Assembly: GCA_963762115.1 (NCBI GenBank)
Contig: CAVXJH010000003.1
Span: forward strand, 522,418 to 586,417
DNA: 64,000 nucleotides
Direction: 5' to 3'
Origin: Candidatus Babeliales bacterium
GTDB lineage: Bacteria; Babelota; Babeliae; Babelales; JANWKD01
Within the stretch, counting starts at the first letter, position 1. Every line of letters begins with the position of its first letter. Below are positions 33,001 through 39,000 of this stretch, one piece after another. The position numbers are program-made.

Positions 33001-36000
33001 AAAAAAGTGAAAATACATTAAATGCATATCTTACAGACATTCGCAATGATTTTAACAACTTTGAAAATGAAGTTAAAAATATAGTAACCCGTGCAAAAAC
33101 AACCGTTGAAAAAATTGGTGGCAACGCGCAAGCAAAATCTTATAAAGAATTCGCTACGCTAAAAAAGAAATTGAAAAACAAAATTCGTGCATTCGAAACA
33201 ATACTAAATGACCATGTTTTTATGATATTAATGATCGAAGATTGCTACTTTAATCGATTAATAAGTCGTGAAAAATATGAAAACCTATTTCAATTAAACC
33301 AATAAAGGAGATAATCTAATGAAAAAACTTATTATTGCAGCGATGCTGCTTGTATTAAATATAATACCGTTAAATTTCATTAATGCTGTTGAAACAATAA
33401 GCCCTAAAGCTAAGGCGGCATTTGATCAGATAACTAAAGTTTGGAACTCCAATGAAAAAAACTTAAGAGACTTTGATAGAAATGTCATTAATAATGGCAT
33501 AAACAATATCAGTGAAACAATAAATAAATCATTACAAAACATCAATACTCAAATTTCACTAGCAGAAATTCTTAATTTAATAAAAACCCTAAAGGATCAA
33601 AAAACAACTCTTAAACCTATTTCAACAACATTATCAAATGAAACATCGCAGGCTCTCAAAAATATTTTTAATGCAACAAAAGATTTCTATAAAAAACTTA
33701 TTGAAACACAAAAAATTGTCGTAAAGGCACAGGCTGAACCAGAGCTGATTGGCAATATGACAAGTTTTGATAAACTGGCACAAGGTATTTTGGTTATTAT
33801 CAAAAGTGCCGTTGAAGATCATAATGCCAATCCTGCATTGTTACCTTTAAAGCTTACTAATAAAGAAAAGGAGCAAGAAAAAAAGGCTTTTGATGAGTTA
33901 AAAAATACAAAATTATATGAAGTAATTATCAAAAAATAAATCAAGTCAAAATACATCTTTTAAAAGTAGCACAGGTTGTGCTACTTTTTTTGCATTCTAA
34001 AAAAATATATTAAAGCTTATGCAGTTACTTTGAAAAGATTAGCTCAAAATCACCAACGCATTCGGATCATAGCGATTATCAAGAATCTCACCAGTTTTGG
34101 CATGCACACAATATTCTTTAAGCGAAGGATCATAGGAAAATTTTTTCTTGCCAAAAGGTATCGACATATACAATTTCTTCCAAATAGGAAATGCCGTTCG
34201 TATAGCATACACATTATTGCCCAGTGACTCATTTTCATCACAACCAATATAAACACCGGTGATCAATTCTGGCGTCGCACCAATAAACAAACATGTTCTT
34301 GAATCATTATTTGTTCCTGTTTTACCGATTGCCTCTGAATCGATCCACTGAGACCCATTACGTTTTTGTGCACGATCCATACCAATACTTAATACCTTTA
34401 CCACCTGACCATTCACGCGAGAATTCAAAGCGGTTTCTTGATGCGGATGCACGGTAAAAATCTTGTGACCCCATTCATCTTTTATCCAACGAATATAATG
34501 TGGTTCTATATAAATACCGTTATTGGCATATACATTAAACATACCAACAGCATCTTTAAGAGTACCATCAACACACCCAAGTGCTAATGATGGATATGGG
34601 TGCAAGGTCGCTTTTATGCCAAAACGAGGAACCATATTCATCACTTTTTCATAACCAACTGATAATAACGTTTTTATTGCAATAATATTGTTTGAATATG
34701 CAAGCGCACGAGCTAATGTCATTTCACCTTCAAATTTACGATTATGATTTCTAGGATTCCATGTGTTAAGGTGAATAGGTTCATCAATTTCTGTTTGTGC
34801 AAAATGCGCTCCTTCTTCAATTGCTGCAGCATAAATAAGAGGTTTAAAAGTAGAACCCATTTGTCGGCGAGCTTGCAAAGCTCGACTAAATTTAGAAACA
34901 GAAAAATCAAAACCGCCGATAAGAGCTTTGATATAACCCGTTTTCACCTCCATTGAAATTAAAGCACCATCAACTACAGGATTTTTTTTACGCAAGAGGA
35001 TAATTTGTTCTTTGAACGCATTTTCTGCTACCTGCTGAATAGCACGATTCAACGTGGTTTGTACAACATAACCGCCGGTATATATTTTTTTCTTGCCAAC
35101 AATTTCTTCTAATGCCATGCGAACTGCTTCTTTTAAATGCGGTGCGCACAAATCAGTTTCATGCACCACAAGATGAACCTCATTCAATTTTGCTTGTGCG
35201 TATTCTTCTTGTGTTATAAACTTCTGCTGCAGCATTGAATGTAAAACAACATTTCTTCGCTTTTGTGCCGATAAAGGATATTTGAGAGGACAATAGTGAG
35301 AAGGATTTTTAACAATACCCGCCAATAATGCAGCTTGATCAAGCGAAATTCCAGCGGCTGATTTACCCCAAAACCGTTGGCTCGCGGCTTCAACGCCATA
35401 AATACCAAAACCAAAAAAAACATGATTAAGATATGTTTGCAAAATATGCTCTTTGCTAAATTGCTGCTCAACAACTAATGCAAACAATTGATCTTTTATT
35501 TTGCGCATAAAAGTACGTTTTGAATCAGTAAAAAGTAATTTTACCAATTGCTGCGTTATAGTGCTTGCGCCCTGCACAATTCTTCCGTGATACATGTTAA
35601 TACATAATGACCGAAGAATACCTTTCCAAGAAATACCGTGATGTTGGAAAAATGCATGATCTTCAGCAGCAACAAATGCTTGAATAAGATGTGGGGACAT
35701 TTGCTGCAATGATATTGGCAAACGGCGATCCAAAGCAAATCGCGCCCATTCATTACCTTGATCATCGAGCAACACCGTTGGCTTTCCAGGATTATATTGT
35801 TCCAAAACACTCAAATCAATAACGGTGTTTTGCACAAAAAAGAAGAATGAGCCCATCAAACAGGAGAACAATAAACTATTTATAATAAGAAAAGTTCTAA
35901 TAATTGACATAACGTTTAACATTAATTTTATAGTGATAAATAATTAGTAAAATAACCAAAATAATCAAAATGTCATTGCGAGGCACATTGTGCCGTGGCA

Positions 36001-39000
36001 ACCCAGCTTATAAAATTCTATTTATTTTTCCTTATTAAGTTGTTCATATAAATCAAACCAACAAGGGTTTATTGATTCAATAAGCTTCAATTTTTTTGTT
36101 CTTGATCCAGACTTTATTTGTTTCTCTCGTTCAATTGCTTTTAACATATCTTCATAAAGCTCATAATATACAAGTAATTTACAACTGTATTGCTTTGTAA
36201 AGCCGTCAATCATATTATTCTTGTGCTGAAAGACTCTTTGAAAAAGATTAGAAGTTACACCCGTATAAAGTGCACCATTTCTTTCATTTGTCATAATATA
36301 TACAGCTGCTTGTTTCATATGAATCTCATAGTAGAATTTTATAAGCTGGGTTGCCACGGCACAATGTGCCTCGCAATGACATTTCGATTTCAATATTTTT
36401 GTTGTTAGCGTAAACATGATTGTTAACATGACAAAGGGTCGCCTAAGCGACCCTTATAATAATTATTTTATTAATTGTTGTTAAGCGTGACAGTCATTTA
36501 CTGCCTACAATTAATTAATATACAAACTTTGTTTCTTCTTGCTCATCTTCAACACCAAAGAAAGCTCTGAATGCTGGGCAAGTTTTCCAAAGAACCGCAA
36601 AACCAACTACTGCAGATACACCAACTACAACAAGTTTATGATCTGTGCACCATTGTTTTGCTTGAGCAAATGTTGGAACGTATGATTTTTTTGCAACAAC
36701 TGGTTTAACTTCTTCTGCAGGTTGTGCAGCACCTGTTGTTACCACAGGGGTTTCTGCTGGAGCTGCTGGTGTTGCTACTGAAGCGTCAACAACAGGAGCT
36801 TCTGGAAGTTGAACTGCTGGAGCTACTACTTCTACTGAAGTTGGAACAACGGGGGTAACTGCTGTTGTTACTTCTTCTGCGCGAAGATATGTACCAGCAA
36901 ACAACATAGCACTTAATGCTAGAGTAATTTGTTTTTTCATTGAATGTGAACTCCTAAAAATAAAGATGAATCAAACTTAACAACTGGATAAAAATGTACT
37001 TGAATAATATTATTTGTCAATATAAGATTATTAAAATGGCAAAAAATGCAGAAGGAGTCGTCGCCATGAATGCTATCATAACACTATTCATTTTTTTATT
37101 TTTCTTTCTTGATGTAACACTTGCAGGTTTTTTTAATTACCATTTTTTCTATTTAATTGGTTGTTTATATTATGCAACATTATTTTTTTCGCAAAATTAT
37201 CTATCTTTGATGATAGCTCTTATGCCAATGCTTTTGCTGGAAGAATTTCTTATTGATGGTCGTTTTGGCATACATCTTTTATATATTTTACCAATAACAC
37301 TCATTGTGTGTTATATAAGACCATTTTTTCGCCAAGATTCAATCCTTATGCCATGCCTCTCATTAACGTTCTTTCTCATTATTAAGACTTTCTTTAAAAG
37401 AGGGTCTTTATTCTCGGGCACCTATATTTTTTTTGAAATTTGTGTTAATATCATAGTGTTAATTATTTTCTTGAAATATATAGTTAAAGGTAGACTAGGC
37501 AATCGCTTGTATGCATAATACAAGAGGAAAGTCCGGACTCCAAACGAACTAAGTACCTTAGGAGAACTTGTTTCAACTAAGGGGGATGTAAATCCATGGA
37601 AAGTGCCACAGAAAATAACCGCCACTCTTGAAAAAGAATGGTAAGGGTGAAAACGCGTGGTAAGAGCACACGAATTATTATAGCAATATAATAATGGGGT
37701 AAACCCTACTTGGAGCAAGACAAAATAGGCATGTTCGGTTGTTCGTTCCGGTTTAAACATGCGGGTATGTCGCCTAGATAAATGATTGTCATTTTTAATG
37801 TTCGCATTAAAAAACAGAATCCGGCTTATTGTCTACCTTACCTATTTTTAGAAATACCTATGACAAAAAAATTCTTCTGGCTCGTTCCTTTTCTCTGTTT
37901 TATATGCACCTATTTTATGTTACATAAAATTTTCAGCATAGCTCCTTTTACCACGCCCAGTGTTGTTGGTAAACCTATTCAAGAAGCGCTTACCATTCTT
38001 TCAGGACACACCCTCAATAGTCGCCTCATCTCCCAAACAGAAGATAATGATCTTCCTGCTGGCATTATTCTCAGCCAACAACCACTTGCCAATCAACAAG
38101 TGCGTCCTTATCAAACGATTTTTTTGACCATTTCAAAGCGAAAAGATAGGATTCCTGCGCCAGATTTAGCGCATAAAACAATAAATACTCTTAAAACCAT
38201 TCTTGAGAAAGACGGAATCAGCTTTAAATTCTACGGACTCATGAGCACAAATCCCCAAAATAGTTGTATTGCTCAAATACCACAACCAGCAGAATTGTTA
38301 AGTGAAGATAAAAAAATGATTATCTACAGTTCACTTGGCATCAACAAACCCGTAATTTTACCATCATTCAAATCATGTGCAGCTGATGAAGTTGTACAAT
38401 TTTTAACAAATAATACTATTAAAACAACAATCTTTCACGCTAAACCAGTTCCTGATGAGCATCGTTGTTTATTTTGCAAAGTTGTTGAACAAAAGCCCCT
38501 TGCCGGTTCTCTTATTGACCTAAAAAAACCACTTACCGTACAATTATATGTTCGATAAATTGCACAAAAGTTATTGAATATCTTCTAAAACATTGTGCAG
38601 TTGCACAAGTGCATGATTTAAATCGCGCAAATTTGATATAAGCGATGAAGAAGAAATACTCGCAATTGGCTGAGGAGCTAACACACATGTTACAGGCTTT
38701 TCTTGTGGTAATGGTTTTGGCACTGATGGCTGAATTTGAATAACAGGTTTTTTTTGTGATGGATTTTTCAAGAGATTAACAATATCTGCATATCCTAATT
38801 TTTCTGCAAGCTGCAACGGTGTTAAATAAAAATTAGAAAGTTTCTTATTCATCTCAAAAAAAATTGATGGAACCTTAAAACCCCATAAATTCGTATAAAT
38901 AGTTGGCATCTGTACATCTGTTTTTTTATTTATATCAACACCCTGATCTATCAAAAAACCAACTATTTCAAGATGATTACCAATTATCGCAGCTGTTAAT

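What a model noticed while it worked through the whole genome (the two positions that open the first line are those of the whole stretch)
35967..36385. A 419-bp hairpin-ended element carrying only a 98-aa GIY-YIG nuclease, with ~15 MITE-like derivatives: a REP/RAYT-like s [...]
C3:558384-558802 is a minimal mobile-element candidate: two 47-bp terminal inverted repeats, each a conserved two-stem hairpin (..TGTCATTGCGAG-GCACATTGTGC-CGTGGCAACCCAG..), enclose nothing but a 98-aa YhbQ/COG2827-type GIY-YIG nuclease gene (the Met-Lys-Gln start inside g00529). The same repeats occur 44 times in the genome, 42 of them between genes, and 15 convergent pairs form 133-235-bp gene-less elements. The same small nuclease, 56-69% identical, sits between inverted copies of the same GTCATTGCGAG...GCAAYCCAG hairpin in bacteria of many phyla, so nuclease and hairpins travel together. 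These 'UvrC-like' small nucleases have been read as repair genes; here they look like the mobilising e [...]
Evidence so far: BLAST of intergenic DNA against the genome found a repeat with up to 72 partial matches. With the 47-nt end as query: 44 copies at E<=1e-3 (22 per strand), 42 intergenic, 15 convergent pairs of 133-235 bp and one of 419 bp that encloses g00529. A second copy of the nuclease (g00507, C3:532988-533284) keeps one intact end; three other small GIY-YIG genes are of another subfamily and have no such ends. On 43 aligned ends the two 4-bp stems are paired in 97.6% of cells; 34 cells carry changes on both sides, reached by 0 of 500 shuffles and by none of six slid controls. The copy at C3:507147-507329 lies in a 390-bp spacer that is 135 bp in the same-genus genome G110, flanks aligned on both sides [...]
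(Added by a program. Inside this text positions count along the whole contig: contig position 522,418 is position 1 of the stretch shown here. "Call 12" and the like, gene names such as g00115 and contig names such as C1 are that model's own, and its searches are not shown. The text may have been shortened before it was handed on; [...] marks where a part breaks off. The agent that wrote the report below was given it as the finding of a first reader that could run no searches.)

Follow-up and report, generated by a model that had tools for sequence, protein, structure and literature searches.

The report
Ssn nuclease riding IS982 mini-transposons
A tiny nuclease gene sits between two DNA hairpins, the pairing published in 2025 as the Ssn family; many copies of the hairpin pair in this genome lie inside the ends of an ordinary IS982 insertion sequence, so a borrowed transposase, not the nuclease, likely spread them.

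Summary
The structure is real: 58-nt inverted repeats enclose a 98-aa GIY-YIG gene, and the hairpin occurs about 92 times in the genome. The system is known. The protein meets the sequence test of the Ssn family (Chenal et al. 2025, PMC11893778; N. gonorrhoeae orthologue as stand-in), and that paper already notes the repeat-gene-repeat layout and the REP/RAYT analogy.

What this genome adds:
- The hairpins are not the outer ends. 39 of 92 have an IS982-type terminal repeat just outside them.
- 7 of 21 pairs with both such ends show exact 6-7 bp target duplications (shuffles 0.30).
- Intact IS982 elements in relatives carry the same ends.
- 7 of 17 longer gene-less pairs hold remnants of the nuclease gene.
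- The published Ssn motif string misses this hairpin type.

So an IS982 transposase likely moved hairpin pairs and gene here; none was found in this assembly. This copy's IS982 ends have decayed. Relatives in other phyla lack these ends, so how the hairpins spread in general stays open. The scan reached this reading before, at the second copy in this genome and in another genome.

The parts
35971..36006 (+). Left hairpin (TGTC...CCAG; CGTC/TGTC-tagged REP, Ssn-related motif of the bulged two-stem type); core of the 58-nt arm 35963-36020
36022..36318 (-). 98-aa single-domain GIY-YIG nuclease of the Ssn family (Y7, Y18, E65 align with Y6, Y17, E64 of Neisseria SsnA)
36346..36381 (-). Right hairpin, identical to the left; core of the arm 36332-36389
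36382..36429 (-). Right outer spacer, homologous to spacers that lie between the IS982 end and the hairpin in other copies; the IS982 end itself is not recognisable
   Evidence: p 0.001 against 1000 shuffles; no significant end score
35919..35970 (+). Left outer spacer with a possible decayed IS982 end at 35919-35931 that overlaps the first ATG of the PBP1a gene; weak
   Evidence: score 1.3, not significant; p 0.039
10453..10975 (+). Second gene-bearing copy, 523 bp, bounded by IS982-type ends (10453-10465, 10963-10975), with hairpins 10505-10542 and 10882-10919 and a gene at 10571-10867 (81% identical protein); flanks give only a 5-bp repeat with one mismatch
16806..16917 (.). Gene-less head-out hairpin pair (112 bp); no IS982 end recognised
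44382..44519 (.). Gene-less head-out hairpin pair (138 bp); IS982-type end on one side
48037..48072 (+). Single hairpin of the family
50240..50275 (-). Single hairpin of the family
63389..63424 (-). Single hairpin of the family

Best explanation
This is an Ssn-family nuclease gene inside a pair of hairpin repeats that it likely cuts as single-stranded DNA, and in this genus the hairpin pair, with or without the gene, lies in non-autonomous elements with IS982 ends that were likely moved by an IS982 transposase acting in trans. Shown: family membership by sequence; IS982-type ends outside many hairpins; 6-7 bp target duplications; gene remnants in gene-less pairs; purifying selection on the gene. 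Inferred: (1) the protein binds the hairpin and cuts a few bases 5' of TGTC, as Neisseria SsnA does; (2) a hairpin-gene-hairpin cassette came to lie between IS982 ends, and deletions gave gene-less versions; (3) these spread while a cognate transposase was present; (4) the outer ends then decayed (as at this copy) while the hairpins and the gene were kept.
For: Ssn: 51.7% identity over 89 of 94 aa to the N. gonorrhoeae orthologue, which is flanked by NTS repeats (E 6e-25 in the database search, 1.7e-35 pairwise). It falls in the same ingroup as that protein in a quick tree, with the outgroup on a branch of 2.67. IS982 ends: the motif lies upstream of a hairpin on the same strand in 19 of 30 hits in G000 (0.18 expected) and 37 of 46 in G001 (0.62 expected). 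By weight matrix, 39 of 92 and 55 of 179 hairpins have it (controls 2/0 and 1/4). Exact 6-7 bp duplications occur in 7 of 21 pairs with both ends (null mean 0.30, max 3 in 5000); with one mismatch allowed, 12 of 21 (null 2.2, max 8). The same 13-mers end 958-993 bp elements with intact IS982 transposases in G134, G116 and G028 (NF033520, 212-231 bits, cut-off 130) and a broken one in G004. Of 53 end-less hairpins, 23 (26 in a first run) have flanks like the end-internal spacers (controls 2 and 1 of 53). The site of this copy is empty in G001 (about 20 nt against 511 nt). Gene remnants occur in 7 of 17 longer gene-less pairs. dN/dS is 0.06-0.23.
Against: This copy has no recognisable IS982 ends or target duplication, and the second gene-bearing copy has only a 5-bp repeat with one mismatch, so carriage of the gene itself by IS982 is less well shown than carriage of gene-less pairs. 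None of the three gene-bearing pairs of G001 has a significant end. 14 of 21 two-ended pairs have no exact duplication, and 53 of 92 hairpins have no end. No IS982 transposase was found in G000 (95% complete), and the one in G001 has different ends. Only 7 of 25 elements had alignable flanks in the other genome: 2 fit a clean end-to-end insertion within 2 bp, 3 fit loosely and 2 do not fit. 17 of 35 syntenic sites hold a hairpin in G001 too. The weight matrix was trained on these same flanks. Cleavage of this hairpin type has not been tested here or, in the parts read, by Chenal et al.
Confidence: 0.7

Rival explanations
1. The nuclease is the mobilising or amplifying enzyme (RAYT-like): cuts beside hairpins in single-stranded DNA, repaired by host enzymes, copy the hairpin pairs and the gene. 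The IS982 ends are a local, secondary capture.
For: 47 of 74 relatives across phyla have hairpins on both sides within 300 bp, and almost none has an IS982 end. In the order, 10 of 12 genomes with 10 or more hairpins encode the nuclease, against 32 of 179 genomes with none (kin are not independent). G003, G006, G021 and G038 have 25-42 hairpins and no end-plus-hairpin match. This copy has near-perfect arms without outer ends.
Against: The target duplications here sit at the IS982 ends, 11-62 nt outside the hairpins. GIY-YIG enzymes hydrolyse DNA and are not known to rejoin strands (established knowledge, recalled). SsnA cuts one strand orientation only, so head-out inverted hairpins would be cut on opposite strands, unlike IS200/IS605. 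Orientation around the gene is mixed (21 of 47 head-out). G006 and G051 have 28 and 79 hairpins with no nuclease found.
Confidence: 0.15
2. Hairpin pairs were inserted one by one into existing IS982 remnants, which act as preferred targets, rather than travelling with the ends.
For: Spacers between end and hairpin vary in length (11-62 nt) and sequence. Di Nocera et al. describe REP dimers sitting inside other palindromes.
Against: No hairpin-free mini-element with good ends and a duplication was seen. The spacers are homologous among copies. Six gene-less pairs share the same gene remnant at a similar position.
Confidence: 0.08
3. The hairpins are terminators or regulatory RNA stems, and the nuclease is a repair gene that happens to sit among them.
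For: Nearly all copies are between genes (4 of 92 lie wholly inside ORFs of 150 aa or more).
Against: No terminator-like site was found in the region; no Rfam match at the hairpins; the cross-phylum linkage to the gene and the published biochemistry of homologues argue against it.
Confidence: 0.05

Closest known systems
Ssn nucleases with NTS/SRM hairpins (SsnA of Neisseria meningitidis; CDD cd10448; Chenal et al. 2025, PMC11893778)
   Same: Single-domain ~95-aa GIY-YIG protein with conserved Y, Y and E; gene flanked by GTC-headed hairpins that are dispersed through the genome; the paper itself calls NTS-ssnA-NTS IS-like and compares it with REP-associated transposases.
   Different: The hairpin is longer, with two stems and an internal loop, and is missed by the published SRM string (0 hits in this genome, 1 of 74 related loci). 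The gene sits inside one head-out pair, whereas the nearest repeats at the N. gonorrhoeae and Azospirillum loci face it head-in. IS982 ends and deletion derivatives are not described in the parts read.
CGTC-tagged REPs (Di Nocera et al. 2013, PMC3733652)
   Same: CGTC/TGTC head, CCA tail, mostly dimers, intergenic; some dimers are noted inside other palindromes.
   Different: That paper found no dedicated transposase. Here a candidate vehicle (IS982) and the linked nuclease are both visible. I could not assign the subfamily (CGTC-1 to 4) because the figure is not held.
IS982-derived MITEs (MITECca01 of Cardinium, PMC9769881; IS982 family, Fayad et al. 2020, PMC7335449)
   Same: Short elements with IS982 ends starting AC, direct repeats within the 2-10 bp range, no transposase gene.
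   Different: The interior is a REP dimer, sometimes with a nuclease gene; the parental IS was not found in this assembly.
QMITE2 of Coxiella burnetii (PMC5896051)
   Same: A MITE with 7-11 nt direct repeats that contains a REP; short versions look like bare REPs.
   Different: GTAG-type REP; 'GIY' does not occur in that paper's main text.
REP/RAYT (REPtrons, REPINs)
   Same: An enzyme gene flanked by its repeats, plus gene-less dimers.
   Different: RAYT is an HUH tyrosine transposase; this is a GIY-YIG hydrolase. It works like one in layout only and is not a member.

Membership tests
Ssn (cd10448) | Match to N. meningitidis SsnA at E<1e-10 over at least 75% of its length | tested here: met
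   Tested with the 94-aa NTS-flanked N. gonorrhoeae orthologue as stand-in: 51.7% over 89 aa, E 6e-25 and 1.7e-35
Ssn (cd10448) | Single-domain GIY-YIG protein under 150 aa | tested here: met
   98 aa, PF01541 only
Ssn (cd10448) | Residues needed for cleavage (Y6, Y17, E64) | tested here: met
   Y7, Y18, E65 align
Ssn (cd10448) | Falls in the Ssn clade of GIY-YIG proteins | tested here: met
   Quick tree only (careful search unfinished; 68 rows, 94 columns): the Neisseria protein lies among these proteins, and 10 outgroup rows sit on a long branch with support 100
Ssn (cd10448) | Best CDD hit is cd10448 | not testable with these tools
Ssn (cd10448) | Gene flanked by 20-50 nt hairpin repeats (the paper's general description of SRMs) | tested here: met
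   36-nt hairpins on both sides
SRM as published search string | Match to the degenerate SRM string | tested here: not met
   0 hits in G000 and 1 of 74 related loci. The head and tail letters agree; the middle differs. The paper found the string near 71% of homologues, so it does not define the protein family, but this hairpin is not filed as a canonical SRM.
Ssn (cd10448) | Site-specific cleavage of single-stranded DNA 5' of the hairpin | not testable with these tools
   Needs purified protein
IS982-derived MITE (family of copies) | Terminal inverted repeats of IS982 type (5'-AC(N)6T...) | tested here: met
   A1 74/78, T9 77/78, C2 56/78 among seeds; the same 13-mers end intact IS982 elements; consensus. 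The distal TT of the consensus was not tested.
IS982-derived MITE (family of copies) | Target duplication of 2-10 bp | tested here: met
   7 of 21 exact, 6-7 bp; null 0.30
IS982-derived MITE (this copy, 35971-36381) | Ends and target duplication at this locus | tested here: inconclusive
   End scores 1.3 and -10.7; the flanks are homologous to end-internal spacers
IS982-derived MITE | Cognate transposase available in the genome | tested here: not met
   None found in G000 by PF13612, protein or tblastx search; assembly 95% complete. The elements would be immobile at present.
REP/RAYT | HUH tyrosine transposase between REPs | tested here: not met
   The enclosed gene is GIY-YIG

The most novel reading that the evidence does not exclude
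Ssn nucleases are the missing enzyme behind CGTC-type REPs: cleavage beside the hairpin seeds new hairpin pairs and moves the minimal hairpin-gene-hairpin unit across phyla. In this genus the cassette was also captured by IS982 ends, so two unrelated enzymes act on one 200-520 bp element, with Ssn cuts diversifying the spacer between end and hairpin.
Probability: 0.2. Interest if true: 0.75.

Novelty: new variant of a known kind. Interest (0 to 1): 0.4.

Why it matters
How CGTC-type REPs spread was left open in 2013, and the 2025 Ssn paper only raised the idea of a domesticated mobile element. This genus gives a concrete, testable route: hitch-hiking in IS982 mini-elements, with target duplications as the record. 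It warns against reading the flanking nuclease as the transposase from layout alone. It also shows a hairpin class, found beside close homologues from many phyla, that the published motif string misses, which means Ssn specificities that appear untested and could be useful for ssDNA tools. The limits: the core system is published, and the IS982 link seems confined to this genus and perhaps one relative.

Tried and rejected
Sequencing runs: three weak DNA holders, no RNA holder listed. Their contigs showed no joint that skips the element, and no contig bridged it, so this is uninformative; the second copy could not be examined this way. PDB sequence search: 0 matches. NCBIfam: no family over its cut-off for the nuclease. 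Rfam: nothing at the hairpins. Promoter scan: 8 sites against 4.3 +/- 2.4 in shuffles, so the TATAAT-like arm tails are not shown to be promoters. Exact boundary mapping against G001 mostly failed because intergenic DNA is too diverged (18 of 25 elements without alignable flanks). A first per-length duplication test that included mispaired ends was weak and was replaced. The IS982 next to a dimer in G001 has different ends and was rejected as the cognate element. Phage collection: only distant GIY-YIG hits, none over 80% of the query. Literature: 'cd10448' gave only the Ssn paper; REP + MITE + GIY-YIG gave 0; Babeliae/Dependentiae with IS or palindrome terms gave 0; IS982 + TIR + MITE listed 6 papers, none with a title or abstract start on Ssn or REP cargo; SsnA + nuclease since 2024 showed no follow-up among 15 of 49 listed. 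Subscription papers were not searchable. No structure prediction or complex job was run.
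Full report
Observation. The window holds a 58-nt inverted repeat, 98% complementary, at 35963-36020 and 36332-36389, around a 98-aa ORF at 36022-36318(-) that matches only Pfam GIY-YIG (E 1.9e-14). 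The 47-nt end has 58 BLAST hits at E<=1e-3 in the 1.53-Mb genome. A looser pattern finds 89 copies and none in three Markov-model genomes. A structural scan gives 92 hairpins with 34 head-out pairs, two enclosing the gene and 32 gene-less (99-218 bp). The same-genus genome G001 has 179 hairpins and 62 such pairs, three with the gene. The closest match outside the window is titled Candidatus Babeliales. Stem positions covary: 89 of 89, 89 of 89 and 88 of 89 copies keep three pairs through T-A/C-G/G-C/A-T swaps, the third skipping an invariant G (copies are related, so this counts cells, not events).

Prior art. Chenal et al. 2025 (PMC11893778; parts 1-6 of 11 of the text read, Supplementary Data 5 read, and the supplements term-searched except file 14) describe single-domain GIY-YIG proteins (cd10448, Ssn) that cut single-stranded DNA just 5' of a GTC-headed hairpin. 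42% of homologues are flanked on both sides. Their Discussion calls NTS-ssnA-NTS identical in architecture to an IS and compares it with REP-associated transposases. The window's protein is 51.7% identical over 89 of 94 residues to the NTS-flanked N. gonorrhoeae orthologue, with Y7, Y18 and E65 matching the residues whose mutation abolished cutting. A quick tree (40 of the 80 genome loci, plus relatives and weak-hit outgroups; four outgroup loci dropped; careful search unfinished) places the Neisseria protein among these proteins. The repeats fit the CGTC/TGTC-tagged REPs of Di Nocera et al. 2013 (PMC3733652; passages, one section and a supplement search), who found no dedicated transposase. 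The published SRM string finds 0 copies here and 1 of 74 related loci, so this hairpin class is a variant.

Across phyla. Of 74 relatives with full flanks, 47 have a hairpin within 300 bp on both sides, 21 on one side and 6 on neither; shuffled loci gave 1, 9 and 62 of 72. Orientation is mixed: 21 head-out, 19 direct, 7 head-in. In 201 genomes of the order, 22 carry this hairpin and 16 of them the nuclease; 32 of 179 without it carry a homologue; G006 and G051 are hairpin-rich with no nuclease found. The six gene copies of G000 and G001 show dN/dS 0.06-0.23 in the 12 of 15 computable pairs, and dS above 1 between the two copies of this genome. The gene is under purifying selection and the duplication is old.

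The true ends. A second motif, ACGCGAATTCGAT, usually after TA, lies 11-62 nt 5' of hairpins on the same strand (19 of 30 hits in G000, 0.18 expected; 37 of 46 in G001, 0.62 expected, one at 144 nt). A weight matrix trained on these hits scores 39 of 92 and 55 of 179 hairpins, against 0-4 in two controls each. Of 34 and 62 head-out pairs, 8 and 13 have it on both sides. 7 of these 21 are flanked by exact 6-7 bp direct repeats (shuffled pairing: mean 0.30, maximum 3 in 5000), and 12 of 21 with one mismatch allowed (mean 2.2, maximum 8). The same 13-mers bound 958-993 bp elements with intact IS982 transposases in three genomes of the order (NF033520 over cut-off; two with 5-6 bp repeats, one with none) and a broken 982-bp one with a 6-bp repeat in G004. 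This fits the IS982 description (AC ends, T at position 9, repeats of 2-10 bp; PMC7335449, abstract and section 4). IS982-derived MITEs are known from Cardinium (PMC9769881, parts 1-2 of 3), and a REP inside a MITE from Coxiella (PMC5896051, passages). No IS982 transposase was found in G000; that of G001 has other ends.

Derivatives and empty sites. 7 of 17 gene-less pairs with interiors of 55 nt or more match the nuclease gene at p<0.01: six at the same 3' stretch (KLKLIESIN) and one near the 5' end. Of 56 repeat loci in G000, 35 had a syntenic site in G001 (some by loose matches); 18 lack a hairpin there and 17 hold one or two. At this locus G001 has about 20 nt between the PBP1a start and a conserved stem-loop, against 511 nt here, more than the 411-nt hairpin span. 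At C6:40871 G000 has one hairpin where G001 has a full gene-bearing pair. Of 25 two-ended elements, 7 had alignable flanks; the gaps were 48 vs 49 expected, 345 vs 347, 42 vs 35, 88 vs 70, 383 vs 349, 96 vs 204 and 503 vs 164.

This copy. Its IS982 ends are not recognisable (scores 1.3 and -10.7) and it has no duplication, but its flanks resemble end-internal spacers (p 0.039 and 0.001), as do 23 of 53 end-less hairpins (controls 2 and 1). The second copy (10453-10975) keeps both ends with an imperfect 5-bp repeat. The gene-bearing pairs of G001 have no significant ends. So IS982 carriage is well supported for gene-less pairs and less so for the gene.

Mechanism and rivals. Most likely (0.7) the cassette is Ssn plus target hairpins, dispersed in this genus as IS982-ended non-autonomous elements that are now decaying. 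IS982 does not explain hairpins elsewhere: the end-plus-hairpin pattern occurs in 5 of 41 relatives, mainly G000 and G001, and not in four hairpin-rich ones. One of the 80 other loci scored over 10 for the end, beside a doubtful hairpin. A role of the nuclease in spreading hairpins (0.15) therefore stays open. Targeted insertion into IS remnants (0.08) and a mere terminator neighbourhood (0.05) are less likely. That GIY-YIG enzymes lack strand transfer is recalled knowledge.

Novelty. The core pairing is published. The IS982-ended carriers, the gene remnants and the hairpin class missed by the SRM string were not found in the searches (open-access papers only). Two earlier scan notes, seen only after this analysis, reach the same reading at the second copy in this genome and in another genome; they are not independent evidence. 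Verdict: new variant of a known kind, interest 0.4.

Noticed in passing
window 37487-37843 (+): RNase P class A RNA gene (Rfam RF00010, 246 bits).
   Followed up: no
window 35919-35931: The possible decayed IS982 end overlaps the first ATG of the PBP1a gene; the G001 orthologue starts two codons further in, so the insertion may have supplied or shifted the start.
   Followed up: partly
window 36319-36330 (-): A four-codon ATG...TGA micro-ORF overlaps the nuclease start (ATGA); read from the sequence only.
   Followed up: no
G001:C1:904478-904671: 194-bp two-ended element with a 6-bp duplication at the very end of a gene; the G000 site fits a clean empty allele within 1 bp.
   Followed up: yes
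G000 C3:347489-348928: Two inverted IS982-type ends 1440 bp apart with an exact 6-bp flanking repeat: possibly a composite unit carrying a host gene.
   Followed up: no
G006 and G051: Genomes of the order (95% and 93% complete) with 28 and 79 hairpins, tandem arrays in G051, and no nuclease found with this query.
   Followed up: no
L027 (Azospirillum lipoferum plasmid) and L028 (Planktothrix plasmid): An Ssn gene between hairpin dimers inserted between sufB and sufC; another inside a DISARM/MmeI defence cluster with no SRM-string match.
   Followed up: no
L201 (G027:C5:157353-157411): An IS982-type end followed by GTCAT beside a partial Ssn-like gene in a different family of the order.
   Followed up: partly
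G001:C1:26207-27135 (L182): Intact IS982-family element with a different end type, next to a hairpin dimer.
   Followed up: partly
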